Assembly (NCBI GenBank): GCA_965205025.1
Contig: CBDBFU010000004.1
Coordinates: 12,898-76,897, forward strand
Length of the DNA stretch: 64,000 nt
Reading direction: 5' to 3'
From: Candidatus Poribacteria bacterium
Lineage (GTDB): Bacteria; Poribacteria; WGA-4E; WGA-3G
This document shows positions 1 to 39,939 of this stretch, piece by piece. Both the position numbers and the translations under genes were made by a program. Position 1 is the stretch's first letter. Each line of letters starts with the position of its first letter. The notes below the pieces were generated by a model. It had not been told where the DNA came from and ran no database searches. It saw only the letters and a program-made list of their open reading frames with translations.

Positions 1-399
1 TTTGAAGATGGCAGGTTAACACCTTCACAGTTTAAAGGAAATCTCATAATTGACAGAAGTGATGAAAGAGTCTCCTTCTTTAGCACCTATGTCCCTGAGG
101 GTCCAGTAAATCTTGATATCGTCTGGTATGAAGATAATGATAAACAAAGTGGAATCACTGATGCTGGTCTATGTACACAAATGGAACTCTGGTCTGGTAT
201 TGTGGAACCGACCAATAATATCGAATATACTGAAAGTATAACACAGGAAGAATCAGAACGAGAGTTAATACTCCGTTTCTACGAATCAGAACAGATTAAC
301 TGGGTTTCACCAGAGAAAGCAATAGAATTGGCTGAGGAACAGGTAAAGTTAATACATGTGATCTCTATAGATGGTCCATTACATGATGAATCCTGCTGA
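1..399 (+). CDS. cassette protein A, copy 1 (C-terminal ~132 codons; 5' end lies beyond the window edge); unknown function
   Basis: Frame open from nt 1 to TGA 397-399. Translation ...FEDGRLTPSQF...YVPEGPVNLD...HVISIDGPLHDESC is collinear with the C-terminal half of the 254-aa ORF 2059-2823 (...FEDGRFTPSQF...YVPEGPVNFD...HVISIDGPFTDEAC). Confidence 0.6.
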   Translation, partial: FEDGRLTPSQFKGNLIIDRSDERVSFFSTYVPEGPVNLDIVWYEDNDKQSGITDAGLCTQMELWSGIVEPTNNIEYTESITQEESERELILRFYESEQINWVSPEKAIELAEEQVKLIHVISIDGPLHDESC

Positions 400-414
400 G
401 GGAGCGGAAAAGGA

Positions 415-1221
415 TTGAGGGCAGGTGTCCTCTATTGGGATCGATTAATCGAGTATTTAAACCAGAACTTTATTAACACATGGGTATCCAACGTCATATT
501 AGAACGTACACCTCGCAAAAAAGCATACATGGCAAAAAGACCAAAGAGTGAATCCAATCAATTCAATAAAAACCACCCATTAGCAAAAGCAATAATGGAA
601 GGTTGGAAGGAACATTCACCTGTGGATTGTTTAGTTATTGCACCTGAAGGCGATGTAATGGGTAAACTACCACTCAACGACTTCTTCGATGAATGTTATG
701 AAAATAACCTTAAAGAAGATGTCTACCTGCAGTTTCTTAAGGATTCATTAGATGCGAAATTTCCAGGTTTCGATGAGGATACTTCAGATCCGTTCTTAAC
801 GGGTTTGAATGTTATCCTAACTGAAGATAATCCTAAACAAGAAGTAATACACATCTACCGAACACCACGTTACGGATATCAAGATTACAATGTCATCACA
901 ATCGATACCACTACTTTTAAAGACGGTGGCAAGTTGACAATAGATATAAATATTGGAAGTGCAAAAGCAGGTGGTTCATTCGATCTGTATGATGGTGATA
1001 CGGAATTACCAACAAAAGGATATCCAGATGGAGCAATTGCGTCTGCATGGGATATTCCTACCGGACAAAAAGGTAGAATTGAATACGAATTTGAAGAAGG
1101 TAAGCTCTTTAAACTCGGTGCTACCGGTACATGGTTCAGTGGTAAAGGAAACATTAATGCTTTTCAGGCAAAAATTTCTATAGAGCCAGCAGAAAAGAAG
1201 AAAAGAACTTATAATGAGTAA
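415..1221 (+). CDS. cassette protein B, copy 1 (268 aa, one C-terminal ~110-aa beta-rich module); unknown function; possibly a readthrough continuation of A
   Basis: ORF begins with TTG, same frame as A, 15 nt after A's TGA. N-terminal region LxYDxxIEYLNxNFxNTWVSNVxLERTP and module YRTPRYGYQDYNVITIDTTTFKDGG...INAFQAKISIE are conserved with ORF 2839-4011. The first in-frame ATG would delete the conserved N-terminus. Confidence 0.6.
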   Translation: MRAGVLYWDRLIEYLNQNFINTWVSNVILERTPRKKAYMAKRPKSESNQFNKNHPLAKAIMEGWKEHSPVDCLVIAPEGDVMGKLPLNDFFDECYENNLKEDVYLQFLKDSLDAKFPGFDEDTSDPFLTGLNVILTEDNPKQEVIHIYRTPRYGYQDYNVITIDTTTFKDGGKLTIDINIGSAKAGGSFDLYDGDTELPTKGYPDGAIASAWDIPTGQKGRIEYEFEEGKLFKLGATGTWFSGKGNINAFQAKISIEPAEKKKRTYNE

Positions 1222-1298
1222 AACATAAAAATGTTATATTATAGGGATTTGAAAGAATTTATTTATGTCCTATTCTCAACTTCGTATATCTATAACTT

Positions 1299-1589
1299 TT
1301 GAAAGGTGTAGCGATGCCAGACAAGACTCAAAAATCCCTGAAATACAATGGTACTCCTAAGCAGGTTTCGCGTAAAGATTTTAATCATTATATCAAACCC
1401 CATCTCAAGAAACGCATCAAAGGTCCTAAACCGAAACTGTCTTTCTATAAGATATTCAACTATATACTTGATAAACTTTCGGGTTGCTTTCAACGATTCT
1501 TAGATGTTACTCGCTATGAATTCTATATGAAAAATAAATCTCAATTATGCACTTTTTTCACCTTTAAATTGTGTCATGTATTATTGTAA
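1299..1589 (+). pseudogene. IS5-family (DUF4096-type N-terminal domain) transposase fragment, truncated; no DDE domain
   Basis: Translation ...RKDFNHYIKPHLKKRIKGPKPKLSFYKIFNYILDKLSGCFQRFL matches the DUF4096 pattern (W-x-x-I-x-P-L-L-P ... R-G-R-P-x-x ... ILYVLRTGCQWR-L) of IS5/IS1182-group transposases. The ORF stops after 96 aa. Confidence 0.45.
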
Positions 1590-1613
1590 ACATTTTGACT
1601 ATGGAGTAAACTC

Positions 1614-1964
1614 ATGAATAAAACAGATGTTGAACTTATTAACAGTATCCTATCAGGTGATAATACTGCGTTCACTACCTTGGTACAAAAATACCAAAAG
1701 AGTGTCCATACCATCGCTTGGCAGAGGGTTAAGGACTATCACATAGCAGAAGAAATTGCTCAAGATGTCTTTCTACAAGTATACGATAAGTTGTCTACAT
1801 TAAAAGACCCAGATAAGTTTGAAAGATGGCTGTATGTAATTACTAAACGACGATGTACTAACTGGCTCCAGAGGGAGAAAACCAATGTAGAATCGTTAGA
1901 AGCTACGGATAAATTTACACTAGTAAAAGCTGCATATTTTCCTTTTTCTGCTCAATTTGCGTAA
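1614..1964 (+). pseudogene. truncated ECF (sigma-70 family) sigma factor; region 2 only, region 4 missing
   Basis: MNKTDVELINSILSGDNTAF...VHTIAWQRV...DVFLQVYDKL...ERWLYVITKRRCTNWLQREK is a typical sigma-70 region 2.1-2.4. The ORF ends after 116 aa and runs into an unrelated remnant in another frame. Confidence 0.5.
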
Positions 1965-2057
1965 GTCTTGTCTAAATTTGGTGCTACAGAGGACTGGTAC
2001 GGCGAGAAGGGACGTATCAATGCCTTTCAAGCACAAATTTCTGTAGAGGAGAACTGA
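1965..2057 (+). pseudogene. remnant of the C-terminal module of a B-type cassette gene
   Basis: Frame 3 translation VLSKFGATEDWYGEKGRINAFQAQISVEEN* aligns with the ends of B (FKLGATGTWFSGKGNINAFQAKISIE) and B' (INAFYLRISVEEN*). The stop overlaps the ATG of A' (TGAAATG). Confidence 0.45.
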
Positions 2058-2058: not shown

Positions 2059-2823
2059 ATGGAAACCTTAGAAAACAAAATCACACTTAATCTTGACAGT
2101 GACGCAGAAGTCAACGTCAAAGGCTTCATCACCCCGATTGAATACACCATATCCAATTTCCATGTAAAGTGGGATGCATTGGCGAATCTGCGTGTTGCTG
2201 AACCGGAAAAGCGGTATCCTGAATCCGTTTTCCAAGCCTTCATGCCGAGCGAAACTGTTTCGGTTGGCGAGCATTGGCAGATTGAAAAGGGCAGTGTGCT
2301 AACACTGCTCCGACAACTACACCCCAATCCGAATCTGGATATGAGCATCAATGCCGGTGATTCCCGCGGGTTATGGGCATGCCTGCGCGCGTACAACGAT
2401 AAATTCGCCGACATTGTGTTTCGAATTCACGCCGAGTTCAAGTTTGAAGATGGCAGGTTTACACCCTCACAATTTACCGGACATCTCGTGATGGACCGAA
2501 CCGCAGAGAAGGTTGCTTTTTTCGAAATGTACGTCCCTGAGGGGCCAGTAAATTTTGATGTTAGCTGGAATTCTATTGTCGATGCCGGACTTTGCACGCA
2601 GATGGAACTCCGTGTCGGAACACAGAATCCAGTCCGAGATGCCGAATTCACAGCGGATTCCATCACCCAAGAAGAAGCGGAACGCATCCTGATACAGCGT
2701 TTCTATAAATCCGAACGAATTAACTGGGTGCCGCCAGAGCAGGCGTTAGAAATAGCACAAGCACAACAGAAGCCGATTCATGTTATCTCAATAGATGGAC
2801 CGTTCACCGATGAGGCCTGCTGA
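2059..2823 (+). CDS. cassette protein A, copy 2 (254 aa); unknown function
   Basis: ATG start abuts the B-remnant stop. Full-length paralog of partial ORF 1-399. Ends ...ISIDGPFTDEAC-TGA. GC-richer (~50-58%) than copy 1. Confidence 0.7.
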   Translation: METLENKITLNLDSDAEVNVKGFITPIEYTISNFHVKWDALANLRVAEPEKRYPESVFQAFMPSETVSVGEHWQIEKGSVLTLLRQLHPNPNLDMSINAGDSRGLWACLRAYNDKFADIVFRIHAEFKFEDGRFTPSQFTGHLVMDRTAEKVAFFEMYVPEGPVNFDVSWNSIVDAGLCTQMELRVGTQNPVRDAEFTADSITQEEAERILIQRFYKSERINWVPPEQALEIAQAQQKPIHVISIDGPFTDEAC

Positions 2824-2838
2824 GGGAGCGGTAAAGAT

Positions 2839-4011
2839 TTGAGGGCAGTTGCCCTCTCTTATGATAAAACTATTGAATTCTTGAATGAGAACTTCGTTAA
2901 TACCTGGGTGTCGAATGTCGTATTAGAGCGGACACCCGCAATGCGTGATTATGCGGCACAGAGATTTGAAGACGGCACCAGGGCACTGTTTAATAGAAAA
3001 CACCCTTTGGCAGAAGTCGTCATGAAGGGGTGGAAAGAACACTCACCAGTAGACTGTTTGATTATCTCATCAGATTCTGAATTGATAGGTAGACAACTCG
3101 TCAACGAACTCCACAAAGACGGGCGTCGTAGAGGACTCCTATCGAATGAATATTATCTCACATTCCTTAAGGAAGCCTTGGATGGAAAACACCCCGGATT
3201 GGGGAACCTCATTCTCACTAAAGAGTCTCCTTCACAGAAAGTGTTGGACGTTTTTCGGACCCCTACAGTCGGTTATCAAGATTATACTGTTGTCTTGATT
3301 GATACCACCGAATTTGAAGACGGAGGCACACTCACTATTGACATTGAAGTTGGCAGAGATGGTGGTGAAGGTGCGTTCTATCTGTTTGATGCCGATAGCG
3401 AACTTTCTACAGAAGAAGAGACCCCTAAAGACATGCTTGCTCAGAGATGGGTTGAATCCGGTGCCACAAAGCAGCTCACGCATCGTTTCAATCGCGGCCA
3501 ACGTTTTAAGTTAGGAACCACCGGGGATTACGAGAGAGAGGAACCGTGTATTAACGCTTTTAGCGCAACAGCTTCCGTACAGGAAAATTCAGATGAAGGC
3601 AGTTCAGATACACCTTCACCCGGTGTGCATGTTGTACTCAATAGTCCGCAGTTAACATGGGAGATATTAGATGTCTTTCGCGCCCCCGGAAACGGTTATC
3701 AAGATTACACTGTCGTCAATATTGATACCACCGCGTTTGAAGACGGAGGCACACTCACTATCTATGTCAAGGTTGGGAGTGCAGACGCTGCAGGTTCGTT
3801 TGATCTCTTTGATGGCGATGCCGAACTCCCGACAGAAGGACTACCTGATGCGCTTGTCTCGTTTTGGGGACTTGAACCCGATACAGCGACAACAATCAGA
3901 CACCGTTTTGAGCGAGGCCAAGTTTTTAAACTCGGTGCCACTGGTGATCAGTCCAGTAAACTTGGGGACATAAATGCTTTCTACCTAAGGATTTCTGTGG
4001 AGGAAAATTGA
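2839..4011 (+). CDS. cassette protein B, copy 2 (390 aa) with two tandem copies of the ~110-aa module; unknown function; possibly a readthrough continuation of A'
   Basis: TTG start 15 nt after the in-frame TGA of A'. Conserved N-terminus MRAVALSYDKTIEFLNENFVNTWVSNVVLERTP. Modules FRTPTVGYQDYTVVLIDTTEFEDGGTLTIDIEVG...INAFSATASVQEN and FRAPGNGYQDYTVVNIDTTAFEDGGTLTIYVKVG...INAFYLRISVEEN. Confidence 0.7.
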   Translation: MRAVALSYDKTIEFLNENFVNTWVSNVVLERTPAMRDYAAQRFEDGTRALFNRKHPLAEVVMKGWKEHSPVDCLIISSDSELIGRQLVNELHKDGRRRGLLSNEYYLTFLKEALDGKHPGLGNLILTKESPSQKVLDVFRTPTVGYQDYTVVLIDTTEFEDGGTLTIDIEVGRDGGEGAFYLFDADSELSTEEETPKDMLAQRWVESGATKQLTHRFNRGQRFKLGTTGDYEREEPCINAFSATASVQENSDEGSSDTPSPGVHVVLNSPQLTWEILDVFRAPGNGYQDYTVVNIDTTAFEDGGTLTIYVKVGSADAAGSFDLFDGDAELPTEGLPDALVSFWGLEPDTATTIRHRFERGQVFKLGATGDQSSKLGDINAFYLRISVEEN

Positions 4012-4013
4012 TA

Positions 4014-4058
4014 TGAAAACATTATCAAACAGAATTACGCTTAATCTTGAGTGAGGCA
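4014..4058 (+). pseudogene. stub of a third A-type gene (14 codons then stop)
   Basis: MKTLSNRITLNLE* matches the start of A' (METLENKITLNLDSD). It sits 2 nt after the B' stop, as in the B-remnant/A' junction. Confidence 0.4.
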
Positions 4059-5357: not shown

Positions 5358-7295
5358 ATGGTATTACTTGATAATACTATAAAAGATACCATCATGGAAA
5401 GCATACTTCGTTCTCTATTACTACTACTGTTAGTATCAAACATTGTCATCCCTTATGTATTCGCTGAATACGAACCAGGCACTCAACTCGCACTTCCAGA
5501 AGGTGCATTAGCACGGCTGGGCAAAGGACGGGTAGAGAAAATCGCTTTTTCTCCTGATGGAAATACACTTGCAGTTGCAAGTTCAATCGGTATTTGGCTA
5601 TACGATGTACGTACTTATAAAGAAGTCTTCCTCCTGACGGGACACACAGCGGATGTTGATTGTGTCTCCTTCAGTCGAGATGGTAAAACCCTCGCCAGTG
5701 GAAGTCAAGACGATACTGTTCGTTTATGGGATATCCCAACAAGAAAACATATTGCTACCCTGCAACATACAGGTATGGTTTTAAGTGTATCTTTTAGTCC
5801 TGATGGTGATTTACTGGCAACAGGATGTGGTTATATGATGACGGCTGATAGATCAACACCTTTACCCGATCAAGATACTGTTAGATTGTGGAATGTTCAT
5901 ACAAAGAAACATATTGCAACATTCAATGGACATTCTGACTATGTGGAAAGTGTGGTATTTAGTCCAAATGGTGAAATACTCGTTTCAGGCAGTTGGGATA
6001 AGACTATCCGGTTGTGGGATATTAAATCCGGGAAAAACATCGTTACACTCGAAAGACATACCGATTCTGTCCATTGTGTTAGATATAGTCCAAACGGTCA
6101 TTTCATTGCAAGTGCTGGGAGCCTGGAAGACAAAAATATCCTATTATGGAATGCAAAAACCGCACAACACATCAATACGCTGAAAGGACACACAAGCTTT
6201 ATCAGTAGTATCGCATTTACATCAGATGGGAAACTAATCGCAAGTGGGGGTGGTGATAATACCGTACGCGTATGGGATGCCAAAACTGGAAAGAAAAACA
6301 TCACTCTCACAGGACATACAGATTGGGTAATAAGTGTAGCATTCAGTCCAGATAACAACACGCTGGCAAGCGCAAGTCGAGATGGAACTATTCGACTATG
6401 GGATGCATCCACTATTAAAGGATATACTCAAAATATTTCTTGTGTAGCATTCAGTCCAGATAGTTCCACATTAGCAAGTACAGGTTGGGATAAAAAAATA
6501 CATCTATGGGATGTTAACACAGGAAAACATAAGAAAGTACTCACAGGTCATACAGATTCAGTCTCAAGGGTAGCATTCAATCCTATAAACAACACACTTG
6601 TAAGTAGCGGTAACGATAAGACACTACGACTCTGGGATATTACGACTGGTAAAACCATCAAAATACTCAAAGACAATACATTCCCTATAGCAATTAGTCC
6701 CGATGGCAAAATATTGGCATGTGGCAGTCCAGACAACACAATACATTTGTTGGATGCAAACACAACGAATCATAAGCATACACTCAAAGGACATACGGAC
6801 TTTGTCGATAGTGTGGCTTTCAATCCAGATGGTAACATAATTGCTACAGGTAGTTCGGACAATACTGTGAGGCTATGGAATACCAATACAGGGAAACAGA
6901 AGAGAGTATTAAATGCCAATATACCATCCTTCAATCATCTAATGTTTAGTCCAGATGGTAATACAATAGCAAGTAATAACTACAACAATTCAATACTCTT
7001 ATGGGATGTTTCTACAGGTAGTTTGAAGAAAACACTTAAACACAAGCAAAAAGCAAACGGATCTACAGATGGTGCCTTATCTGTTGGGTTCAGTCCTGAT
7101 GGTAAATTCTTAGTGTCTGGCAGTTATTCTGGCAAGGTTCATCTATGGGATATTAAAACTGGAGATTTTAAGAGAATACTCAATGGACATACAGGGAATG
7201 CCACTACTGTAGCAATTAGTCCAAATGGAAAATTCTTGGCTACTGGTAGTACAGACGGCACAATCCTCCTATTTGGTCAAGTATGGAAGGAATAA
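5358..7295 (+). CDS. WD40-repeat protein (>=12 WD repeats) with N-terminal signal/anchor segment
   Basis: Repeated GH-x-x-x-V-x-S-V-x-FSPDG-x-x-LASGS-x-D-x-T-(I/V)RLWD units. N-terminus LLLLLLVSNIVIPYVFA. Shares the N-terminal motif LPEGALARLGKGR with the paralog at 21293-23125. The start could instead be at ATG 5394. Confidence 0.85.
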   Translation: MVLLDNTIKDTIMESILRSLLLLLLVSNIVIPYVFAEYEPGTQLALPEGALARLGKGRVEKIAFSPDGNTLAVASSIGIWLYDVRTYKEVFLLTGHTADVDCVSFSRDGKTLASGSQDDTVRLWDIPTRKHIATLQHTGMVLSVSFSPDGDLLATGCGYMMTADRSTPLPDQDTVRLWNVHTKKHIATFNGHSDYVESVVFSPNGEILVSGSWDKTIRLWDIKSGKNIVTLERHTDSVHCVRYSPNGHFIASAGSLEDKNILLWNAKTAQHINTLKGHTSFISSIAFTSDGKLIASGGGDNTVRVWDAKTGKKNITLTGHTDWVISVAFSPDNNTLASASRDGTIRLWDASTIKGYTQNISCVAFSPDSSTLASTGWDKKIHLWDVNTGKHKKVLTGHTDSVSRVAFNPINNTLVSSGNDKTLRLWDITTGKTIKILKDNTFPIAISPDGKILACGSPDNTIHLLDANTTNHKHTLKGHTDFVDSVAFNPDGNIIATGSSDNTVRLWNTNTGKQKRVLNANIPSFNHLMFSPDGNTIASNNYNNSILLWDVSTGSLKKTLKHKQKANGSTDGALSVGFSPDGKFLVSGSYSGKVHLWDIKTGDFKRILNGHTGNATTVAISPNGKFLATGSTDGTILLFGQVWKE

Positions 7296-20963: not shown

Positions 20964-21292
20964 TGTCAATTCTACAGGACACTATCCTTCCCATCCAGAT
21001 TTACCGTTGTTTTTCCATGCCCATATAATCTTCACTTGGTAGATCAGGTCACCTATTATATGCAATACACGCATCTGGTGTTGAATTAATAGAAACCGAA
21101 CCTTTATAGAACAGGTTTGAGGTAAAATATTATCTTTATACTCTTACATTTTGACAACAATTACTTTCTGATTATTGCCAATTTTCCTTATCAATTATAC
21201 GATTTTATCACAAACCTATTTGATAATATTGATATTGACAAATGGAGACATGATCCTTGATTTCATTACATTCTTTAGACTCAAGTACAGCT

Positions 21293-23125
21293 ATGCAAGA
21301 TTACACACAATGGAATCTACCCACAGGTGTGAAAGCCCGTCTGGGGAAGGGTAGGATAAGTGATGTATTAAATCCATCTGAAATAGCATACTCTCCCGAT
21401 GGACAGTGTTTTGCTGTAGCAAGTGCCAATGGTATTTGGATATACGACGCACAGACGGCTAAAGAACTTAACCTCCTAACAGGACATACATCTGATAACA
21501 CAACCGTATCTTTCAGTCCAGATGGGGTTATCTTGGCAAGTGCGAGTGGGGACAATACCATCCGTTTGTGGGAAATTCAAACTGGAGCACATGTCGGAAC
21601 ATTGAAAGAGCATACATCTCGTATTAATAACATCGCATACAGTCCGAGTGGCTTATTATTAGCAAGTGCAGGTGATGACAATACAATTCGTCTGTGGGAT
21701 GTGCAAACACATGATATGATTCGGACACTCAGAGGTCATACAGACAGGGTTACCAATGTTGTATTCAACCCAGACGAATCTATCTTGGTTAGCGCAAGTT
21801 GGGACAATAACATATGTCTTTGGGATGTGCATTCTGGCACCTTGCTTCAAACACTCACAGGGCATACATCTACTGTCAGTAGAGTATCGATCTGTGCAGA
21901 TGGAAAAACACTTGCAAGTTCAAGTTGGGACAAAACTGTGCGTTTGTGGGATATGCAAAAAGCAATGCATATACATACTCTTATAGGACATACGGGGAGG
22001 GTTACCAACGTTCTATTTAGCCCAAATGGTGAATTACTTGCAACCACTGCGATGGATCATGATACAGATTTACGCTTGTGGGACATGCTGACAGGTGGTA
22101 CACCTCTTAAGATACTAAAAGGACATACGAGAAAAGTTACAAGTCTTGTGTTTAGTCCGGATGGGTCTACTTTGGTAACTGGAAGTGGGGACTGCACTGT
22201 CCGTCTGTGGGATGTGGCAAGTGGTACATCACGTCAGATAATTACAGACCATACCTTTCGTGTCGCAAGTATCGCCTACAGTCCGGATGGATCAATGTTA
22301 GCTAGTTCTGGATGGGATGAAACTATACCTATATGGAACACGTATACCGATGAATTACTTCATCGACTTAAAGGACATAAGGCTGATGTCGTAGACCTTG
22401 CGTTTAGTCCTGATGGAAAGACAATCGCAACTTCAAGTTGGGATAGAACAGCACGTTTATGGGATGTGAAGACAGGTACATCTTTACACATACTGACAGA
22501 GCATCGTGACTTTGTCAATTGTGTAATTTTCAGTCCTGATGGCAAGACCCTTGCCACTGGGTGTGCTGGGAGTGCTGACAATGATGTGCGTTTGTGGGAT
22601 GTAGCGAAGGGAAAACTCATATTGACATTGACAGATCATACGCGGAGTATCAATAGCGTAGCGTTCAGTCCTGATGGCAAGACTCTTGTGAGTTCAAGTG
22701 ATGACAGGACAGTCCGTTTTTGGGATGTAGAAACTGGAGCACATATTCGAGTACTTAATGAGCATACGAAATCTGTTTATAGTGTTGCATTCAGTCCTGA
22801 TGGAAAGATACTTGCAAGTTCGAGTGACGACAGGACAATACATTTATGGAATATACAGACTGAAACATATTCACACCGTCTCACAGGACATACCGATGGT
22901 GTAAGGTGCGTTATATTCAGTCCAGATGGAAAAACACTCGCAAGTGGGAGTAGAGACAATGATGTGCGTTTATGGGATACTCAAACAGGTAAACACCTAA
23001 AGACATTGCAGGGTCATACAGGACTGGTTTATACAGTTGTATTCAGTCCAGATGGAAAAACACTCGCAAGCGGGAGTCGTGACGGCAGCTTGCTGTTTTG
23101 GGACCTTGATTCACAAAACCAGTAG
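21293..23125 (+). CDS. WD40-repeat protein (second paralog, ~13 repeats)
   Basis: Repeated GHT-x-x-V-x-S-V-x-FSPDGK-x-LASxS-x-D-x-TVRLWD units. N-terminal LPTGVKARLGKGRISD as in 5358-7295. The ORF track start 21257 is TTG; the first ATG is 21293. Confidence 0.85.
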   Translation: MQDYTQWNLPTGVKARLGKGRISDVLNPSEIAYSPDGQCFAVASANGIWIYDAQTAKELNLLTGHTSDNTTVSFSPDGVILASASGDNTIRLWEIQTGAHVGTLKEHTSRINNIAYSPSGLLLASAGDDNTIRLWDVQTHDMIRTLRGHTDRVTNVVFNPDESILVSASWDNNICLWDVHSGTLLQTLTGHTSTVSRVSICADGKTLASSSWDKTVRLWDMQKAMHIHTLIGHTGRVTNVLFSPNGELLATTAMDHDTDLRLWDMLTGGTPLKILKGHTRKVTSLVFSPDGSTLVTGSGDCTVRLWDVASGTSRQIITDHTFRVASIAYSPDGSMLASSGWDETIPIWNTYTDELLHRLKGHKADVVDLAFSPDGKTIATSSWDRTARLWDVKTGTSLHILTEHRDFVNCVIFSPDGKTLATGCAGSADNDVRLWDVAKGKLILTLTDHTRSINSVAFSPDGKTLVSSSDDRTVRFWDVETGAHIRVLNEHTKSVYSVAFSPDGKILASSSDDRTIHLWNIQTETYSHRLTGHTDGVRCVIFSPDGKTLASGSRDNDVRLWDTQTGKHLKTLQGHTGLVYTVVFSPDGKTLASGSRDGSLLFWDLDSQNQ

Positions 23126-24833: not shown

Positions 24834-26045
24834 ATGAAGTTATTTCGTGTTCTAATATTGATATGGACCTGCTTATACATTACTATCACTGCCAATGCTG
24901 ATGAAAAACCATTTTCTGTATCTGGTTATGGTGTAATAAACTACTCACATTTTAATTGGGACCTTGATCCAGATAGACGGGCTGCATTGGATTTAGAAAG
25001 ATTGGTTGTTGCCCCAAAATACCGCATTAACAACACTATTCGTCTTGAAGCTGAGCTTGAATTTGAACACGGTGGTACTGGTAGTACGATGGAATTTGAT
25101 AAATTTGAGGAATTTGGTGAATTTGAGTTTGAAATAGAAAAAGGTGGGGAAGTTATTGTTGAAAAACTTGCAGCGGTTTTCTCAATAAAACCTTCTTATA
25201 ACTTCCGTATCGGACATATCATCGTCCCTATAGGACTTGTGTCTAAACGTCATCGACCACAACACTATTTTACAACAACCCGTCCAGAAGCCGAAACACA
25301 CATCATTCCGACAATTTGGCACGAAACTGGAGTTGAAGTTTTTGGTTCATTTGGTCCAGTAAGTTACCAAGCACAAATTGTCAATGGATTAGACTCTACT
25401 GGATTTAGTTCAAGGTACTGGATTGTGCGAGGACATCAATTACGATTTGAAACTGTAAATGCTGAAACCCCTGCTTATGTTGGAAGACTCGATTATAACT
25501 TCCAGAAGAATGGAACCATCGGTGTCTCAGGTTATTATGGAGATACCGCTGCAAATCGACCTAAACCTGATGTTGACTTCAATGCAAACGTCGGGATTAT
25601 AGGTCTGCATGGTTTTTATGAGGAAAATGCAATTATACTACGTGGATTGTTCCTAATGGGAACTTTGGAAAATGCACATCTACTTTCAAAAGTCAATCGG
25701 ACATTATCCAATAATCTGAATGTTAAACGCACACCAATAGGTAGTTCAGCAATAGGATGGTATATTGAAGCAGGTTATGATGTCCTCTCTTTCTTAAAGA
25801 AAAATAAAGAAACACACCAAAGACTTGAGGTTTTTGGACGGTACGATTATTACGATACTATGGCAAGTGTGGAAGGCGTTATTTTTGATAATCCCCGATG
25901 GGAACGAAGAACTTGGACAATGGGTTTAAACTACCATGTCCACCCGCAATTAGTTTTCAAGAGTCATTATTCTTTACGAAGGTTAGCTACCAAGGAGAAA
26001 AACAAAGAAGATACATTTTCACTTGGTTTCGGTTTTCAATATTAA
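24834..26045 (+). CDS. outer-membrane beta-barrel (porin-like) protein
   Basis: Signal peptide MKLFRVLILIWTCLYITITANA. Alternating amphipathic beta strands. C-terminal ...FSLGFGFQY (terminal aromatic). Confidence 0.55.
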   Translation: MKLFRVLILIWTCLYITITANADEKPFSVSGYGVINYSHFNWDLDPDRRAALDLERLVVAPKYRINNTIRLEAELEFEHGGTGSTMEFDKFEEFGEFEFEIEKGGEVIVEKLAAVFSIKPSYNFRIGHIIVPIGLVSKRHRPQHYFTTTRPEAETHIIPTIWHETGVEVFGSFGPVSYQAQIVNGLDSTGFSSRYWIVRGHQLRFETVNAETPAYVGRLDYNFQKNGTIGVSGYYGDTAANRPKPDVDFNANVGIIGLHGFYEENAIILRGLFLMGTLENAHLLSKVNRTLSNNLNVKRTPIGSSAIGWYIEAGYDVLSFLKKNKETHQRLEVFGRYDYYDTMASVEGVIFDNPRWERRTWTMGLNYHVHPQLVFKSHYSLRRLATKEKNKEDTFSLGFGFQY

Positions 26046-26089
26046 TTTTTCAATTACTGAATAAAATGGAAATTCATAAGGAGGATATA

Positions 26090-27178
26090 ATGAATTTCAA
26101 TAAATGGATATCAATGTTGTCATGCCTGTGTGTTTTGGTATTTCTTTTGGGTTGTGGCGCTGAAGATGATACAGATGGAGACGACGAACCAAAGGCTGAA
26201 GCATTCCAATCCAGTACAATGCTAAATGATTTCGCGAATACTGTCGTTTTAGCAACCTATACGGAATTGGATAAGAAAGCAGGAGAACTATTGGATGCAG
26301 TTAAGGTATTGGAAAGTGATACCACACAATCAAATCTTGTGAAAGCACAAGAGGCATGGAAAGCCACACGTACACCGTGGGAACAGAGCGAAGCATTCTT
26401 GTTCGGACCGGTTGATACACAAGGTCTCGACCCCGCATTGGATAGTTGGCCAGTTGACCACGTTAACCTACAATCTGTGTTAGATAGCAATGACAACCTA
26501 ACAGTAGATTATGTCAATGGCTTAGAGGATACACAAAAAGGTTTTCATACAATTGAATTTTTATTATTCCGAGATGGAGATCAACGGAAAGCCTCAGATA
26601 TAACGGATCGTGAATTGGAATATCTTGTCTCAACAACAGAAAACCTTAAGGCAAGTACTTCACAACTACGATTAGCATGGGCACCAGAAGGTGAGAATTT
26701 CAGTAGTTCTGTTGCTCAAGCTGGAACAGGAAGTATTATTTACACATCTCAGAGCGCGGCTGTTCAGGAAATGGTTAACGGTATGATTACAATCGCCGAT
26801 GAAGTCGCAAACGGGAAAATATCCGACCCCTATAATGAATCAAACACCACACTTGTGGAATCACAATTCAGTTTTAATTCTATCTCTGATTTTCAAGATA
26901 ATATTAGAGGTATTCAAAATGTCTATCTCGGTAAATATATGAATGATGGACAAGGATTAAATGAATTTGTAAATACCAAAAATGCAGAATTAGATTCACG
27001 GTTTCAATCTGAAATACAAAATGCGATTGACACCATTGGGGCAATCCCTGATCCTTTCCGGGATTCTATTACTAAGAGTCGAAGTTCTGTACAGGCAGCA
27101 ATTGATGCCGTAAGTAAAGTTCAGTTAACTTTGGAACAAGATATTCTTCCACTTGTACAATCAAGTGAGTTCAATTAG
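26090..27178 (+). CDS. imelysin (Peptidase_M75/IrpA-like) family lipoprotein
   Basis: AGGAGG 6 nt before ATG 26090. Lipobox LLGCG. ...KAQEAWKATRTPWEQSEAFLFGP... matches the conserved imelysin core. The ORF track start 25898 overlaps the previous gene and is unlikely. Confidence 0.6.
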   Translation: MNFNKWISMLSCLCVLVFLLGCGAEDDTDGDDEPKAEAFQSSTMLNDFANTVVLATYTELDKKAGELLDAVKVLESDTTQSNLVKAQEAWKATRTPWEQSEAFLFGPVDTQGLDPALDSWPVDHVNLQSVLDSNDNLTVDYVNGLEDTQKGFHTIEFLLFRDGDQRKASDITDRELEYLVSTTENLKASTSQLRLAWAPEGENFSSSVAQAGTGSIIYTSQSAAVQEMVNGMITIADEVANGKISDPYNESNTTLVESQFSFNSISDFQDNIRGIQNVYLGKYMNDGQGLNEFVNTKNAELDSRFQSEIQNAIDTIGAIPDPFRDSITKSRSSVQAAIDAVSKVQLTLEQDILPLVQSSEFN

Positions 27179-27212
27179 ATAGATTTCAATACCCAAAACT
27201 CTATGACTATTA

Positions 27213-27254
27213 CTATTGTTGGGAATAGATTTTCTACTTTCCAACAATAGTTTT
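27213..27254 (+). terminator. rho-independent terminator candidate after the imelysin gene
   Basis: CTATTGTTGG ...18 nt... CCAACAATAG followed by TTTT. Confidence 0.45.
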
Positions 27255-27315
27255 AAAACAAAATCTTATATTTTCACTTGTTTTAGAACTAAGATTCAGC
27301 AGTTTTTAAAATTAT

Positions 27316-28718
27316 ATGAAGTATTTCAATGTAGTATTACTTTTTTCTATGATTTTCTTCATCAGTGGTTGTGAAACAGACCGTGAGACAGACAATTTAA
27401 ACAACACACAAACGAATTCAACCATTCCTCTGGCTGGAGGGGAAACAACTGTTTTTGATGCATCAAGTCATGCATTCTCCATCCCAGCACCAAATCTCTC
27501 AGCGGATGCTTTGAATAAACACCTTGAAGGGGATGTAGAATTTGAAGCTGTCTTTGTTACCTCCCCAGCAGTTGTGAATCCGGGATTGGGACCAATATAT
27601 AATAACGTCTCTTGTATTAATTGTCATTCTCGTGATGGACGTGGACGACCTCCCACTGTTAATGAAGAACTCGTTTCTTTACTATTCAGACTTAGTCTTC
27701 CCAATCCAAATAACATTGTAAATGGAAAACAACCTATACCTGTCCCCGGGTATGGCACCCAACTGAATAATCGGGCAATTTACGGAACACCTGCTGAAGG
27801 AAATGTTGACATTACCTATACAGAACAACCTATAGTAACATCAGATGGAACGAAAATACATCTACGATATCCAAGTTATTCTATAACAGATGCTTATCAT
27901 CCACTACCTGAAGACATTGAGGTATCCCCACGAGTAGCTCCAGTGGTATTTGGTCTCGGTTTGTTGGAAGCTATCCCTCAGGAAGTTATCCTTTCAAACG
28001 CAGATGAATCAGATGTTAATCAGGATGGTATATCAGGAAAACCTAATTTTGTTTGGGATGTAGTAAAAAAGCAATACGTCTTAGGACGATTCGGTTGGAA
28101 AGCAAACCAGCCAAACCTACTACAACAAGTAGCTTCAGCCTATCATGATGATATGGGGTTAACAACTTCACTGTTCCAGATGGAAAATTCAAAAGGACAA
28201 TCACAACATACTGAAGTAAGTACATCACCAGAAATAAGCGATGAGATATTGGATGTAGTGACATTTTATGTTCAAACATTAGCAGTACCAGCACGACGTA
28301 ATGTGGATGATCCTAAAGTAATTCAAGGAGAACAACTTTTTACACAAGCACAATGTGGTACATGTCACACCCCAACACACAGAACTGGTTTATTCCAGGG
28401 TATACCATCAGTAAGTAATCAAACAATTCATCCATACACCGACCTATTACTTCACGATATGGGACCCAGATTTAGCAGACAATCGTCCTGATTTTCAAGC
28501 AACTGGTACGGAATGGCGAACACCACCCTTATGGGGAATAGGTTTAGTACGGACTGTCAATGGCCACACCAATTTCCTACATGATGGTAGAGCTCGTGAT
28601 CTTATGGAAGCTGTTCTTTGGCACGGTGGTGAAGCTGAAAAATCTCGCAATATTACATTAGAGATGTCCCAAACTGAACGAAATGCATTAATTGCATTCT
28701 TAAATTCATTGTAATTCA
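27316..28718 (+). pseudogene. DUF1111 di-heme cytochrome c peroxidase-like (thiol oxidoreductase) lipoprotein, frameshifted near 28455-28465
   Basis: Lipobox FFISGCETD. Two CxxCH heme motifs (CINCHSRDG, CGTCHTP). Frame 1 ends ...LLHDMGPRFSRQSS*. The -1 frame continues DPDLADNRPDFQATGTEWRTPPLWGIGLV...HGGEAEKSR... to TAA 28716-28718, i.e. the normal DUF1111 C-terminus. The shift lies at GGGACCC. Confidence 0.65.
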
Positions 28719-28733
28719 ATTCCACAAAAGGAT

Positions 28734-28991
28734 ATGGGAATGAATCTAACTATAATGACCATTAATTGCAGTATATTAATAATAATGTTTTTAATTGGAC
28801 TTTGCTTTTGTGGTTGTGAAAGCGACCCAATACTATCTCCTCAAGTTGAAGTATCTGAGGAATCGGGTAGTTACGGAAATACAAACATTGAGATTAATGA
28901 ATCTGAAACCAGTTCAAATAAAGTGAATAATCAACAGAAAAGAAGAATTCGTAGCAAGTTTAACAAGAATACAAACCCTAAACTCTTCTAA
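28734..28991 (+). CDS. small putative lipoprotein (85 aa)
   Basis: Hydrophobic N-terminus with LIGLCFCGCESD lipobox-like motif. Confidence 0.35.
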   Translation: MGMNLTIMTINCSILIIMFLIGLCFCGCESDPILSPQVEVSEESGSYGNTNIEINESETSSNKVNNQQKRRIRSKFNKNTNPKLF

Positions 28992-29009
28992 GGTACAGGA
29001 TTATCTTTT

Positions 29010-31520
29010 ATGTATATTTTTACAGGTGTAGTTAACATATCAAAAACATGGAATAGATCCGTAATAATGATCTTGATGGTTACACTTCTCATGTGTATAG
29101 TCCATAGTTCCGAGGGAACAAACATAATTAGTGGTAAGGTCGTAAATAAAGAAACAAAACTCCCAATTTATGGAGCGACTGTTAAAATTGATTCAAAAGG
29201 ACATACCATACAAGAAACTTCAACCGATAGAGAAGGCAACTTTCATTTTACGCAAGATTGGCATGAGGATCAACAACTTCATGTCAATTCAGAAGGTTTT
29301 AATTTCTACAAGCAAGTACTATCATCTACTGGAGAGTTAGATGGTTTGGAAATAATGTTAACACAACAGCCTTTTGAGCTTGCACCCATCGAAATCATAG
29401 GTCAATCTTTACTGGAACATAAGAAATTACCGGGTACAATGACTAAGTTAGAACCAGAGACTGTTAATTTAATCAATCCTGTAGGAACCCAAGAATTACT
29501 TGAACTAATACCTGGAATCAATGGATATGCAGATGATGGTTTCGGGAACTCACGATTGAGTATTGGCATACGTGGTTTAAACCCGCGAAGAAGTGCCCGT
29601 GTGCTTTTGCTTGAAGATGGTGTCCCAATTCAACCCGCCGTATATATCTATCCAAATGCTTATTACAACCCACCAGCAGACCGTATTGATGCAGTCGAAG
29701 TTATTAAGGGTAGTGGAGCTATCCGCTATGGTCCACAGACTATGGGGGGTGTGATAAACTATACAACCCGAAAACCAACAGGAATACAAGGCTTAGCTAA
29801 TCAAATTACTTTGGGAAACAATGGATATTATAGTGGATTCTCAGAAATCAGAGGAATTGGAAGTCCTGATATCGTTGTCTCAGATGTACAACTTCTATAT
29901 AAACATGGGGATGGATTTAGAGATAATAATACTTTTGATCAATTCAATGGTACAGTGAAGACATTATTCCAATTGACTGAAGAAAAAACACTATACATGA
30001 AATTAAATGGGAATTATGAAAATTCAAATGCAACATATACAGGATTGACAGAGTATTCTTTTAGGACAAATCCGAATTTCAATCCAAAGAATGATGACAA
30101 TTTTAAAGTCATACGTACTTCACTTGACCTAATTTATACCAACAAGATATCAGATAACATAGTTAGTAATTCGACCCTATATTCAAGTCTTTTTGATCGT
30201 AGATGGTGGCGTGAGGATGATATTTTTGTTCGACCATCCTCATTTGACACAGGTAAATTAACACCAGTACCGTATTTCCAAAACGGAGACCTTATCAGAA
30301 CTGGTAATGGAAAGAGTAATTTTGGTATTCTGCGTACATTCTATGTTGGTGGAGTGGAGCAAAATTACGCATGGAAACATGGAATTGGTAGCAATTCAGC
30401 AAATGTAGACATTGGGGGCAGATTACATTGGGAAAGGTTTATTGACGATAGGAAAGTTGGTAATGCCCCTGATGCACGAGATGGAGTTTACTATACTGGT
30501 GTACAGGATTCAACTAAAGACCCTGTGAAGATTGTTGGACAAAGTCATCATTACGAAACTACTGCATTGGCACTCTACGCAGAAGAACAGATTGAATTTC
30601 AAAACTTGACTCTGATAACCGGTGTTCGGTATGAGCTATTTAAACAAGACCGTGTTGATAGATTACGCGGGTCAGTACTCGCTGATAAAGTATCTTCTGT
30701 ATTATTACCAGGTATTGGCGTAAATTATGAAGTAGGACATTTCAACTTTTTTGGGGGTATTCATAGAGGTTATACTGCACCTTCCAGCGGGGCATTAAAG
30801 ATAACTAATTTTGGACAGAATGTGGAATCTGGTGGACTTGACCTTGAACCTGAGAAAAGCTGGAATATGGAAGTTGGTGTTAGATCCTGGATACCGGGGA
30901 TTATCCTAGAGACATCCACCTTTTTGATTCAGATTGAAGATTTAGTCGCAGCGGGAAGAGGTACGGCATTTAAGAATTTAGGTAAGGTCAATCTATCTGG
31001 ACTCGAATTTGCAATGAAATTAGGTATATCAGAATTATCTTCAATTCTTCCAGATTTCAACTTTACATATACATACCTTCAAACAGAAATTATTGATGGA
31101 ATTATAAAGTCTGCTACTATAGCAGGTAATGTTGATGTAGATATAAATGGTAATGAATTACCCTATGCTCCACAACACACCTTTACAATAGGTTTGTCAA
31201 AATATTTATGGGATTCTATCCGTATGCGTGCAGATATGCGGTTTGTTGATGAAGTATTTACTGATTTTGAGAATCTACAACAAACCTTTAACCGAGGAGA
31301 CACTGGACCTATTCCAAGTTATTCAATTGTTAATGCAAGTATAGATTACAAAGTTTCACAACAATGGCAGCTATTTTTTACTGTCAAAAACCTATTAGAT
31401 CAAGTTTATATCGGGTCACGACTGCATTCAAATGCTGGTCAACCTGAAGCAAATCTAAGCTCAGGAATCTTAATTGGTCCGAGAAGACAGATATTATTTG
31501 GTATAAAACAAGGTATATAA
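29010..31520 (+). CDS. TonB-dependent outer-membrane receptor with N-terminal carboxypeptidase-regulatory-like domain
   Basis: ISGKVVNKETKLPIYGATVKIDSKGHTIQETSTDREGNFHF (CarbopepD_reg-like), then plug domain. Long beta-barrel. 836 aa. The real start is possibly ATG 29067. Confidence 0.8.
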   Translation: MYIFTGVVNISKTWNRSVIMILMVTLLMCIVHSSEGTNIISGKVVNKETKLPIYGATVKIDSKGHTIQETSTDREGNFHFTQDWHEDQQLHVNSEGFNFYKQVLSSTGELDGLEIMLTQQPFELAPIEIIGQSLLEHKKLPGTMTKLEPETVNLINPVGTQELLELIPGINGYADDGFGNSRLSIGIRGLNPRRSARVLLLEDGVPIQPAVYIYPNAYYNPPADRIDAVEVIKGSGAIRYGPQTMGGVINYTTRKPTGIQGLANQITLGNNGYYSGFSEIRGIGSPDIVVSDVQLLYKHGDGFRDNNTFDQFNGTVKTLFQLTEEKTLYMKLNGNYENSNATYTGLTEYSFRTNPNFNPKNDDNFKVIRTSLDLIYTNKISDNIVSNSTLYSSLFDRRWWREDDIFVRPSSFDTGKLTPVPYFQNGDLIRTGNGKSNFGILRTFYVGGVEQNYAWKHGIGSNSANVDIGGRLHWERFIDDRKVGNAPDARDGVYYTGVQDSTKDPVKIVGQSHHYETTALALYAEEQIEFQNLTLITGVRYELFKQDRVDRLRGSVLADKVSSVLLPGIGVNYEVGHFNFFGGIHRGYTAPSSGALKITNFGQNVESGGLDLEPEKSWNMEVGVRSWIPGIILETSTFLIQIEDLVAAGRGTAFKNLGKVNLSGLEFAMKLGISELSSILPDFNFTYTYLQTEIIDGIIKSATIAGNVDVDINGNELPYAPQHTFTIGLSKYLWDSIRMRADMRFVDEVFTDFENLQQTFNRGDTGPIPSYSIVNASIDYKVSQQWQLFFTVKNLLDQVYIGSRLHSNAGQPEANLSSGILIGPRRQILFGIKQGI

Positions 31521-31588
31521 TTTAGTGTATACAGATATAGAAATGTATTATAACATTTCTATATCTTGTATCTTCAAACTTAATTTTG

Positions 31589-31607
31589 GATAATGAGATT
31601 CATTATC
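31589..31607. promoter_or_regulatory. Fur box (17/19 match to consensus GATAATGATAATCATTATC) 21 bp upstream of gene 31628
   Basis: GATAATGAGATTCATTATC, perfect palindrome, identical to the site at 36345-36363. Confidence 0.6.
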
Positions 31608-31627
31608 CAAAAAATGTAAGGTGATTT

Positions 31628-32944: not shown

Positions 32945-33051
32945 GTAATACTCTAAGTTCGGACCCATATAAGGTTGAGTAGTTAAACAAAGGAAGATTA
33001 TCCACGTAATGGTTAATCTTCCTTTTTACATCTCTTGAAACGTCCAAAAAG

Positions 33052-34542: not shown

Positions 34543-34855
34543 TAGAAATGCAGAAGAGAATTAGTAGGTATGTGGTTCTCTAAACGACTATATAATAGTG
34601 TAATTTAAGACATATACACTTACATACCTCGGTAGGTGCTGTTTCCCGACGAATTCCTATCGGGAATACCTTAATGGCATTCATACCGTTGATTTGACGG
34701 ATTCGGTGTTGATTCCCCGCATTGGTTTTTAGTGTATCATAAACTTAAAATCTACCATATTATGACTTAATCACACAAACTGATTTTGTGAATCATTGTT
34801 CAGAAATAACATAAGACATTATCAATCTATTTTTGGTATCGGAGAAAAATTCATA

Positions 34856-36187: not shown

Positions 36188-36344
36188 ATAATAATATAGA
36201 TAATAAATACCAATTTAAGTTGTAAATTACAAATTAAACTGAGAATATTGAAAAATAAATTTGACATTAATTAATAATTATAGTATTCTATCAATGCAGC
36301 AACCGTAATAAAGCATCTACTGCTTCAAAAACAGCCTCTATTAT

Positions 36345-36363
36345 GATAATGAGATTCATTATC
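36345..36363. promoter_or_regulatory. Fur box upstream of heme-degrading monooxygenase-like gene
   Basis: GATAATGAGATTCATTATC, identical to 31589-31607. Confidence 0.6.
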
Positions 36364-36537
36364 ATAATTAAAGGTTCTTTTGAATACTCCTTAGGAACAG
36401 ACGGTATAATACGAGGATAGGATTCTAACTACAACCGACTATACCTTAACTCGAATTTACCTTTGTTGAACAATGGTTCTGTTAGATGAATATGTCACAG
36501 AATCTACAAGGTCGTTTATTCAGTACATATTCACTAC

Positions 36538-36567
36538 GTTTGGTAGGGAGGTATATCCCTACCAAAC
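36538..36567. repeat. perfect 12-bp-arm inverted repeat (GGTAGG-type palindrome)
   Basis: GTTTGGTAGGGA-GGTATA-TCCCTACCAAAC, 48 bp upstream of ATG 36615. Confidence 0.5.
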
Positions 36568-36614
36568 CTACTGACATGTCATTATAATCTATTTACTAAT
36601 GTAGGAGACAGTTA

Positions 36615-36980: not shown

Positions 36981-37199
36981 TTATACGCAGAAAAAGCGGC
37001 GAGTAGAACAAGGCATGCTCCAACTGGCAATTGATAGCAAATGCCGATGTTTCTAATGGAAATGATACATCTGGACTGATGATCTACAATCTCTCGCGTT
37101 TGATGGATCACACGCACAAGGTATGAACGTAGTCACCCTATGCCTTTTCTGCATTTATAAGAATACAACATTAGTATCTCAACTGTCAAGGGGAATTCA

Positions 37200-37922: not shown

Positions 37923-37940
37923 AAAGAAAAGGATCAACAC

Positions 37941-39935: not shown

Positions 39936-39939
39936 GACC

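What the first reader, a model, noticed from the sequence alone, without database searches (positions are those of the whole stretch)
394..445. In-frame TGA with conserved codon-like 15-nt spacer joins A to B in both cassette copies; B has no ATG start (selenocysteine or programmed-readthrough candidate)
A and B lie in the same reading frame in both copies (ORFs 1..399 / 415..1221 and 2059..2823 / 2839..4011, all frame 1). They are separated only by TGA plus 15 nt: ...DESC-TGA-GGGAGCGGAAAAGGA-TTGAGGGCAGGT and ...DEAC-TGA-GGGAGCGGTAAAGAT-TTGAGGGCAGTT. Read through, the spacer encodes GSGKG / GSGKD, conserved as protein. The two nucleotide differences are a synonymous third-position change (GGA to GGT) and a Gly to Asp change, which is the pattern expected for coding sequence, not for an intergenic spacer between 50%-identical paralogs. 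B's conserved N-terminus (L-x-YD-x-x-IE(Y/F)LN-x-NF-x-NTWVSNV-x-LERTP) precedes the first ATG in both copies, so B must either start at TTG immediately after the spacer or be translated as a continuation of A. The UGA is preceded by Cys (C-U dyad, reminiscent of redox Cys-Sec pairs) and followed 18 nt later by a conserved hairpin (GAGGG-CAGGUG-UCCUC; GAGGGC-AGUU-GCCCUC in copy 2) with compensatory stem changes. TGA is otherwise a rare stop in this window (TAA dominates).
Basis: partly seen in the sequence, partly recalled or inferred. Interest (0 to 1): 0.7.

Follow-up and report, generated by a model that had tools for sequence, protein, structure and literature searches.

The report
Bacterial selenoprotein N gene, split by annotation
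The two "genes" A and B are one gene whose in-frame TGA most likely encodes selenocysteine, and the protein is a bacterial relative of animal selenoprotein N (the human muscle-disease protein SELENON), a family that the papers I could search call animal-specific.

The parts
1..396 (+). Copy 1, N-terminal part (A), cut by the window edge. It holds the SelN-like beta-rich domain and strand beta1 of the thioredoxin fold, and ends ...IDGPLHDESC.
   Evidence: BLASTP of copy 1 read through against SELENON homologues gives E 2e-18.
394..399 (+). TGC-TGA, the Cys-Sec dyad of the S-C-U-G motif in copy 1.
   Evidence: TGC-TGA in 161/161 distinct junctions. Cys-Cys in homologues P0124, P0126, P0127, P0145, P0148, P0180. 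SCUG motif of SELENON: PMC8584023.
400..414 (+). 15 nt read as G-S-G-K-G. This is coding sequence, the N-terminal end of helix alpha1, not an intergenic spacer.
   Evidence: No indels in 161 junctions. Variation is mostly synonymous: GGC/GGT/GGA/GGG, AGC/AGT, AAA/AAG. GSGK is also present in the full-length non-Sec and Cys forms.
417..432 (+). Bacterial SECIS-like hairpin of copy 1: stem GAGGGC/GUCCUC, loop AGGU.
   Evidence: 96.7% of cells paired over 145 sequences, with G-C to A-U double changes in 9. Synonymous entropy is 0-0.43 bits at codons +7 to +11, against about 0.4-2.0 bits at most other codons and 0 at the Cys codon -1. The apex GCAGGU is the same as in E. coli fdhF.
415..1221 (+). 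Copy 1, C-terminal part (B): the rest of the thioredoxin fold (alpha1 to alpha3, HSPVD cis-Pro region) and one C-terminal beta-sandwich domain.
   Evidence: Folds come from models of homologues.
2059..2820 (+). Copy 2, N-terminal part (A), 254 codons from ATG. No signal peptide. Ends ...IDGPFTDEAC.
   Evidence: 100% identical to P0001.
2818..2823 (+). TGC-TGA, the Cys-Sec dyad of copy 2 (A-C-U-G).
2824..2838 (+). 15 nt read as G-S-G-K-D.
2841..2856 (+). Bacterial SECIS-like hairpin of copy 2: stem GAGGGC/GCCCUC, loop AGUU.
2839..4011 (+). Copy 2, C-terminal part (B): the rest of the thioredoxin fold and two tandem beta-sandwich domains (3244-3582 and 3667-3999).
1614..2045 (+). Deletion remnant of the ECF sigma / TM / beta-sandwich gene that follows A-B pairs in relatives. 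Residues 1-108 and 416-439 of the 440-aa homologue remain.
   Evidence: Pfam Sigma70_r2. tblastn with the L078 sigma protein. A gene of about 439 aa is present in 25/77 loci.
4013..4054 (+). 13-codon stub (MKTLSNRITLNLE*) of a further A gene.

Best explanation
A and B are one gene for a selenocysteine-containing protein. The UGA at 397-399 (and at 2821-2823) is decoded as selenocysteine. The selenocysteine elongation factor SelB, carrying Sec-tRNA(Sec), binds the small hairpin 17 nt downstream, inside the coding sequence, and delivers Sec to the ribosome paused at UGA. Translation then continues through G-S-G-K into what annotation calls B. The product is a bacterial homologue of animal selenoprotein N. 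It has a beta-rich N-terminal domain, then a thioredoxin-fold domain with a vicinal Cys-Sec pair (S/A-C-U-G) at the position where thioredoxins carry CxxC, then one or two beta-sandwich domains. The Cys-Sec pair probably cycles between selenol/thiol and a selenenylsulfide, so the protein would act as a thiol oxidoreductase. The frequent neighbour is an ECF sigma factor tethered to the membrane and carrying the same beta-sandwich domain, which suggests a role in redox sensing or signalling. Shown here: the invariance of the UGA, the missing start codon, the nucleotide-level constraint on the hairpin, the Cys homologues, the homology to SELENON, and the fold in models of homologues. Inferred: actual Sec insertion, the redox chemistry, and the link to the sigma factor.
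Against: No selA, selB, selC or selD and no tRNA lie in the 64-kb window, and I could not scan this genome itself. About 15 full-length Poribacteria paralogues carry Gly, Thr or Trp, not Cys, at the position, which is not the usual Sec/Cys pattern within a lineage. Covariation in the hairpin is modest: one pair has double changes and most pairs are invariant. The fold rests on models of homologues 34-54% identical to the window protein, because the window protein itself could not be submitted. No selenium or proteomic evidence was available.
Confidence: 0.9

Rival explanations
1. A and B are two separate proteins. TGA is the stop of A. The conserved GGGAG in the spacer is a ribosome-binding site, and B restarts at the TTG 15 nt downstream by translational coupling.
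For: GGGAG lies 10 nt before the TTG in both window copies. Gene callers annotate B from this codon (P0017). Public records list both halves as separate hypothetical proteins.
Against: The codon is CTG, TTT or TTC in 98/161 paralogues. The stop is never TAA or TAG, although TAA is the common stop. The spacer never changes length or frame and varies mostly synonymously. The split would cut a thioredoxin fold between beta1 and alpha1, at its active site. Full-length homologues, including animal SELENON, run through this point.
Confidence: 0.03
2. UGA is read through or recoded with a standard amino acid instead of selenocysteine. Candidates are Cys via a SelB-dependent tRNA(ReC)-type tRNA, or Trp or Gly by near-cognate decoding.
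For: Full-length paralogues have Gly, Trp or Thr, and distant homologues have Cys, at this position. tRNA(ReC) that recodes UGA with a SECIS is described (PMC13582414). No selenium data exist.
Against: The hairpin has the features of a SelB-binding SECIS. SelA and SelD, which make Sec, are reported for a Poribacteria genome with this gene. The homologous animal protein has Sec at exactly this residue. If Cys, Gly or Trp were wanted, a sense codon would be simpler, and some paralogues do use one.
Confidence: 0.05
3. The TGA marks decaying pseudogenes or an assembly error in repeated cassettes.
For: The window does contain decayed relatives next to the copies: a sigma gene remnant at 1614-2045 and a stub at 4013-4054.
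Against: The same TGA is found in 161 distinct genes from dozens of independent assemblies. Amino-acid sequence is conserved on both sides while synonymous sites have diverged.
Confidence: 0.01

Closest known systems
Animal selenoprotein N (SELENON / SEPN1)
   Same: Significant similarity over about 340-410 residues, spanning both the N-terminal domain and the thioredoxin-like domain (E 2e-29 to Nematostella, 3e-26 to wombat). The local motif is the same, S-C-U-G-S-G-(K/R)-x-L-R, with Sec at the identical column. Shared blocks include FRIHAEF, (T/S/C)PSQFTG and LNExF(V/I)(N/S)TW.
   Different: No EF-hand and no N-terminal membrane anchor or ER context. One or two extra C-terminal beta-sandwich domains. 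Sec insertion is directed by a hairpin inside the ORF, not by a 3'-UTR SECIS. Many tandem paralogues per genome. Only about 24-31% identity to animal SELENON. Often followed by an ECF sigma factor gene.
Bacterial selenoprotein genes with an in-ORF SECIS (type case: E. coli fdhF)
   Same: In-frame UGA followed by a short hairpin whose apex reads GCAGGU in both. G at loop position 1 or 2. Cys-containing homologues exist.
   Different: The apex lies 6 nt further from the UGA than in fdhF. The stem is a simple 6-bp helix with no obvious lower stem or bulged U. The protein family is unrelated.
Thioredoxin-fold proteins of the DsbD-C / DsbH / Thioredoxin_7 type
   Different: A vicinal C-U (or C-C) pair instead of CxxC. 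Pfam matches are only sub-threshold (E 0.04-0.2).
C-terminal GCUG redox centre of mammalian thioredoxin reductase
   Same: An adjacent Cys-Sec followed by Gly, a resemblance already noted for SELENON (PMC8584023).
   Different: Here the dyad is internal, within a thioredoxin fold. It is not on a flexible C-terminal tail of a flavoenzyme.

Membership tests
Bacterial selenoprotein gene (UGA-Sec recoding) | In-frame UGA conserved among orthologues and paralogues, with coding sequence on both sides | tested here: met
   161/161 junctions, same frame, no indels.
Bacterial selenoprotein gene (UGA-Sec recoding) | Homologues with Cys aligned to the UGA | tested here: met
   CC forms P0124, P0126, P0127, P0145, P0148, P0180. 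Some paralogues have Gly, Thr or Trp instead.
Bacterial selenoprotein gene (UGA-Sec recoding) | SECIS hairpin shortly downstream of UGA with a conserved G in the apical loop | tested here: met
   6-bp stem 17 nt after UGA. 158/161 loops have G at position 1 or 2. Synonymous sites are frozen. The apex equals that of fdhF. bSECISearch itself was not available.
Bacterial selenoprotein gene (UGA-Sec recoding) | selA, selB, selC and selD in the same genome | tested here: inconclusive
   None in the window. Published COG table: SelA, SelB and SelD present in Poribacteria WGA-3G, which carries the gene. tRNA-Sec was not checked.
Bacterial selenoprotein gene (UGA-Sec recoding) | Selenium in the protein | not testable with these tools
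   Needs 75Se labelling or mass spectrometry.
Selenoprotein N (SELENON) family | Sequence homology over the conserved core | tested here: met
   BLASTP E 2e-29, 3e-26 and 2e-22 to P0205, P0196 and P0253. P0253 is named selenoprotein N.
Selenoprotein N (SELENON) family | SCUG motif with Sec | tested here: met
   Copy 1 reads S-C-TGA-G and copy 2 A-C-TGA-G. Across the family the residue before Cys is S 108, A 52, G 1. Motif per PMC8584023.
Selenoprotein N (SELENON) family | Thioredoxin-like domain carrying the Sec | tested here: met
   Models of homologues P0002 and P0126. The window protein itself was not modelled.
Selenoprotein N (SELENON) family | EF-hand calcium-binding domain | tested here: not met
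   No Pfam hit. The bacterial sequences have no counterpart of the EF-hand-like stretch (LDxxxDxYIxPEEF) seen in P0196 and P0253.
Selenoprotein N (SELENON) family | Type II membrane anchor and ER lumen location | tested here: not met
   Copy 2 has no hydrophobic N-terminus. 38/98 relatives have a cleavable-type signal peptide and 60/98 have none.
Thioredoxin superfamily oxidoreductases | CxxC (or CxxS / UxxC) active-site motif | tested here: not met
   The motif is a vicinal C-U or C-C pair, with no second Cys two residues later.
Thioredoxin superfamily oxidoreductases | Thioredoxin fold | tested here: met

The most novel reading that the evidence does not exclude
Selenoprotein N, regarded as an animal-specific selenoprotein of unclear biochemistry, has Sec-containing bacterial homologues with the same SCUG active site. 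In the sponge symbionts Poribacteria they form one of the largest expansions of a single selenoprotein family: at least 8 Sec-encoding paralogues in one genome bin, often followed by a membrane-tethered ECF sigma factor gene. On this reading the animal protein descends from (or shares ancestry with) a bacterial redox-signalling module, and bacteria could serve as a tractable model for SELENON chemistry.
Probability: 0.55. Interest if true: 0.8.

Novelty: new member of a known kind. Interest (0 to 1): 0.72.

Why it matters
SELENON mutations cause congenital myopathies, yet its catalytic mechanism is poorly defined and I found no solved structure for its redox domain. One paper in the searchable library calls it animal-specific (PMC2375036), and the prokaryotic selenoproteome reviews and databases I could read do not list it. 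A bacterial homologue with the same Cys-Sec centre, natural Cys-Cys variants and a confident predicted fold gives a route to biochemical and structural study. It also bears on the origin of the animal gene. In practice, hundreds of Poribacteria genes are now annotated as two hypothetical proteins and should be merged. The selenoproteomes of sponge symbionts are therefore underestimated. The conserved pairing with an ECF sigma factor that shares a domain suggests a testable redox-signalling function.

Tried and rejected
- Pfam and NCBIfam scans of the read-through proteins found nothing above threshold. The domain alone gave only sub-threshold Thioredox_DsbH, DIM1 and Thioredoxin_7 hits.
- A profile search of PDB sequences found nothing.
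- Rfam and ARAGORN found nothing in the window.
- A Pfam scan of the other 37 non-overlapping ORFs of at least 90 aa (all but the one at 5358-7295) found no sel genes.
- A small upstream hairpin that includes the U of the UGA (alignment columns 6-10 with 16-20) is only 83% paired and shows no double changes. I do not count it as part of the element.
- Alternative genetic code (TGA as Gly or Trp): rejected, because ordinary genes in the window end in TGA and no other long ORF is interrupted by TGA.
- Recent transfer from the sponge host: no support, since all bacterial forms are about equally distant from animal SELENON.
The afdb50 fold library was unavailable.
- The exact contig of the window could not be looked up.
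- Literature searches for bacterial SelN homologues found none. Several apparent hits were word artefacts such as 'selenoprotein name' and 'selenonucleoside'.

Full report
**The observation.**
- TGA lies at 397-399 and at 2821-2823, both in frame 1. Open frames of 132+273 and 258+395 codons flank them.
- The 15 nt after each TGA read GSGKG and GSGKD. They are followed by TTG and by a 6-bp hairpin at 417-432 and 2841-2856.
- Folding energy alone is unremarkable for these two copies (z -0.6 and -1.2). The case therefore rests on comparison with other sequences.
- The window holds only these two copies. No other sense-strand TGA has long open frames on both sides.
- TGA is also an ordinary stop in the window. 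Six of 42 non-overlapping ORFs of at least 90 aa end in TGA: one is the in-frame TGA ending A of copy 2, one is the stop of B of copy 2, and four belong to other genes. The genetic code is therefore standard.

**Comparative test of the junction.**
- A protein search with A+B gave 1715 relatives. Named sources call them hypothetical proteins of Candidatus Poribacteria. Most are A-only proteins (about 250-280 aa) or B-only proteins (about 390 aa).
- A scan of species-representative genomes gave 296 relatives. I fetched 77 loci, all but three from records titled Poribacteria. They carry tandem arrays of up to four A-B pairs per 6.7 kb.
- In 161 distinct junctions the codon is always TGA. The preceding Cys codon is always TGC, the frame is always kept, and the spacer is always 15 nt.
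- The spacer varies as coding sequence does: Gly GGC/GGT/GGA/GGG, Ser AGC/AGT, Lys AAA/AAG, and a variable fifth residue.
- The codon taken as B's start is CTG in 96 junctions, TTG in 58, ATG in 4, and GTG, TTT and TTC in one each. So 61% have no start codon there.
- In 83 genes the first in-frame ATG/GTG/TTG is codon +20, inside the conserved helix. Most paralogues therefore cannot translate B on its own.

**The hairpin.**
- Over 145 distinct sequences the stem is 96.7% paired. One pair switches G-C to A-U on both sides in 9 sequences, and another moves among G.U, G-C and A-U.
- Synonymous sites give stronger evidence. Codon entropy is 0-0.43 bits at codons +7 to +11 and 0 at the Cys codon. 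At most other codons around it is about 0.4-2.0 bits.
- Arg is only AGG/AGA, Ala is GCA in 151/153, Gly is GGT in 110/110, and Leu is CTC in 157/161.
- The loop is AGGU (107), AGUU (48), GGGU (3) or ACGU (3). A G occupies loop position 1 or 2 in 98% of cases. A recent survey reports this as invariant in bacterial SECIS elements (PMC13582414).
- The apex GCAGGU is identical to the apex of the E. coli fdhF SECIS, read from NC_000913.3. It lies 6 nt further from the UGA here.

**Homologues without the TGA.**
- About 15 Poribacteria paralogues are full-length and carry Gly, Thr or Trp at the position.
- Their DNA uses TGT for the Cys. P0008 keeps the stem but has loop AACU. P0058 has no hairpin.
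- A profile of the junction domain searched against 1.84 billion representative proteins found 144 relatives. Many end exactly at the Cys. Many others begin six residues after the UGA position.
- Those that span the junction include seven proteins with Cys-Cys (DES-CC-GSGK): P0121, P0124, P0126, P0127, P0145, P0148 and P0180. This is the classical Sec/Cys pair.
- The distant Cys forms P0126 and P0180 encode the residues at the hairpin position with other codons and form no hairpin. The hairpin is therefore not a by-product of the protein sequence.
- P0121 looks like a recent Sec-to-Cys conversion that still has the hairpin.
- Two GC-rich non-Poribacteria contigs (L082, L083) repeat the architecture...DDQSC-TGA-P(T/S)G..., a 15-nt gap between the called genes, and a hairpin with loop GGUC.

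**Identity of the protein.**
- The junction-spanning hits also include animal proteins. P0253 is named selenoprotein N (Sarcophilus). P0196 (wombat) and P0205 (Nematostella) are EF-hand proteins of the same family.
- Copy 2 read through aligns to P0205 over its residues 13-351, across the UGA at residue 255, with E 2e-29. Against P0196 E is 3e-26 at 31% identity.
- SELENON carries Sec in an SCUG motif (PMC8584023). Window copy 1 reads S-C-UGA-G-S-G-K-G-L-R, against animal S-C-U-G-S-G-R-T-L-R.
- Translated fragments of vertebrate-like SELENON DNA from unnamed assemblies show SC-W-G at the end of an exon. The W most likely stands for TGA read under another code.
- All bacterial forms are about equally distant from the animal proteins. 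Nothing points to recent transfer from the sponge host.

**Fold.**
- A model of the Poribacteria full-length homologue P0002 is moderate overall (pLDDT 63.5) but confident over residues 270-415. There it shows beta1, Cys307-Gly308, alpha1, beta2, alpha2, beta3, beta4, alpha3.
- Foldseek matched DsbH-type thioredoxin domains at E about 1e-4, and matched the C-terminal domain to beta-sandwich modules.
- A model of the Cys-Cys form P0126, built on a broader alignment, is confident (pLDDT 89.7, pTM 0.85). C307-C308 sit just before alpha1 and Pro370 sits just before beta3.
- The TGA thus falls at the active-site position of a thioredoxin fold, and the A/B split would cut that fold in two. The window protein itself could not be submitted.

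**Selenocysteine machinery.**
- The window has no tRNA, no Rfam hit and no sel gene.
- Slaby et al. 2017, Table S4, lists COG1921 SelA (2), COG3276 SelB (1) and COG0709 SelD (1) for Ca. Poribacteria WGA-3G.
- Locus L009 is a WGA-3G contig and carries the TGA junction.
- Sec-type hydrogenases have also been reported from Poribacteria.
- tRNA-Sec was not checked, and I could not scan the source genome.

**Context and function.**
- In 25 of 77 loci an A-B pair is followed on the same strand by a gene of about 439 aa. That gene encodes an ECF sigma factor, a transmembrane segment, and a C-terminal domain 50-70% identical to the beta-sandwich of B.
- The window keeps a deletion remnant of such a gene at 1614-2045.
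- The Cys form P0126 lies next to an ECF sigma gene. P0127 is itself an ECF sigma / TM / SelN-like fusion. The non-Sec form P0008 follows such a gene.
- Of 98 A-type N-termini, 38 look like signal peptides and 60 do not; copy 2 does not.
- My inference is a Cys-Sec (selenenylsulfide) oxidoreductase that may feed redox information to the sigma factor. This is not shown.

**Novelty.**
- In the searchable literature SelN is called specific to animals (PMC2375036).
- It is absent from the prokaryotic selenoproteome reviews, the GOS survey and the BSepDB paper text.
- 'Poribacteria' with 'selenoprotein' retrieves only the hydrogenase paper.
- Pfam and NCBIfam have no model that reaches threshold on these proteins.
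- Public records call both halves hypothetical proteins.
- The recoding mechanism and the protein family are both known. What appears new is a bacterial, Sec-containing, greatly expanded branch of the family: at least 8 paralogues in bin PCPOR1 and at least 6 in OZ241378.1, counted only from the fetched loci.
- I cannot exclude a description in papers or databases outside the held library.

Noticed in passing
window 1614-1937 and 1974-2045 (+): Remnant of an ECF sigma / TM / beta-sandwich gene (residues 1-108 and 416-439 of a 440-aa homologue). About 307 codons are deleted and a stop lies between the two pieces.
   Followed up: yes
L016-L075 (25 of 77 loci); L078 4710-6032: The roughly 439-aa ECF sigma factor downstream of A-B pairs ends in a domain 50-70% identical to the C-terminal beta-sandwich of B. 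A membrane-tethered sigma factor and the selenoprotein therefore share a module.
   Followed up: partly
window 4013-4054 (+): MKTLSNRITLNLE*, a 13-codon stub of a further A gene directly after the stop of B in copy 2.
   Followed up: partly
window 2059-4011 versus 1-1221: Copy 2 has 47% GC (GC3 45%). Copy 1 has 38% (GC3 30%) and the whole window 38%. Copy 2 looks compositionally foreign, which suggests exchange between lineages.
   Followed up: no
window 3244-3582 and 3667-3999 (+): B of copy 2 carries the C-terminal beta-sandwich domain twice, whereas copy 1 has it once.
   Followed up: partly
window 394-396 and 2818-2820; all 161 junctions: The Cys codon before the UGA is TGC in 161/161 Sec forms but TGT in the non-Sec forms P0008 and P0058. 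This may be a codon-context requirement for Sec insertion.
   Followed up: partly
L084 4001-4429: P0121 reads TGC-TGT-AAA followed by an intact GAGGGC-AGUU-GCUCUC hairpin. It appears to be a recent Sec-to-Cys conversion with a relic SECIS, in a short (142 aa) and probably decayed gene.
   Followed up: partly
P0282 (NCBI 'selenoprotein N [Sigmodon hispidus]'): This animal entry starts with SGRTLRE a few residues in, i.e. just after the Sec. It is the same truncation artefact as B here.
   Followed up: no
window 1222-1613 (+), ORF 1299-1589: AT-rich (35% GC) stretch between copy 1 and the sigma remnant, with a 96-aa ORF that has no Pfam hit. Possibly a remnant of a mobile element.
   Followed up: no
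window 25898-45317: Haem/iron uptake cluster: imelysin, di-haem oxidoreductase, two TonB-dependent receptors, two HmuY proteins, an ABM monooxygenase, a PepSY_TM protein, Peripla_BP_2/FecCD/ABC transporter genes, and ferritin.
   Followed up: no
window 55624-63720: A DNA methylase gene (55624-58710) and a ResIII/SNF2 helicase gene (60571-63720) are separated by a DDE transposase gene (59088-60479).
   Followed up: no
window 5358-7295 and 21257-23125: Two large WD40-repeat proteins, the kind of eukaryote-like repeat protein for which a published COG table shows high counts in Poribacteria WGA-3G.
   Followed up: no
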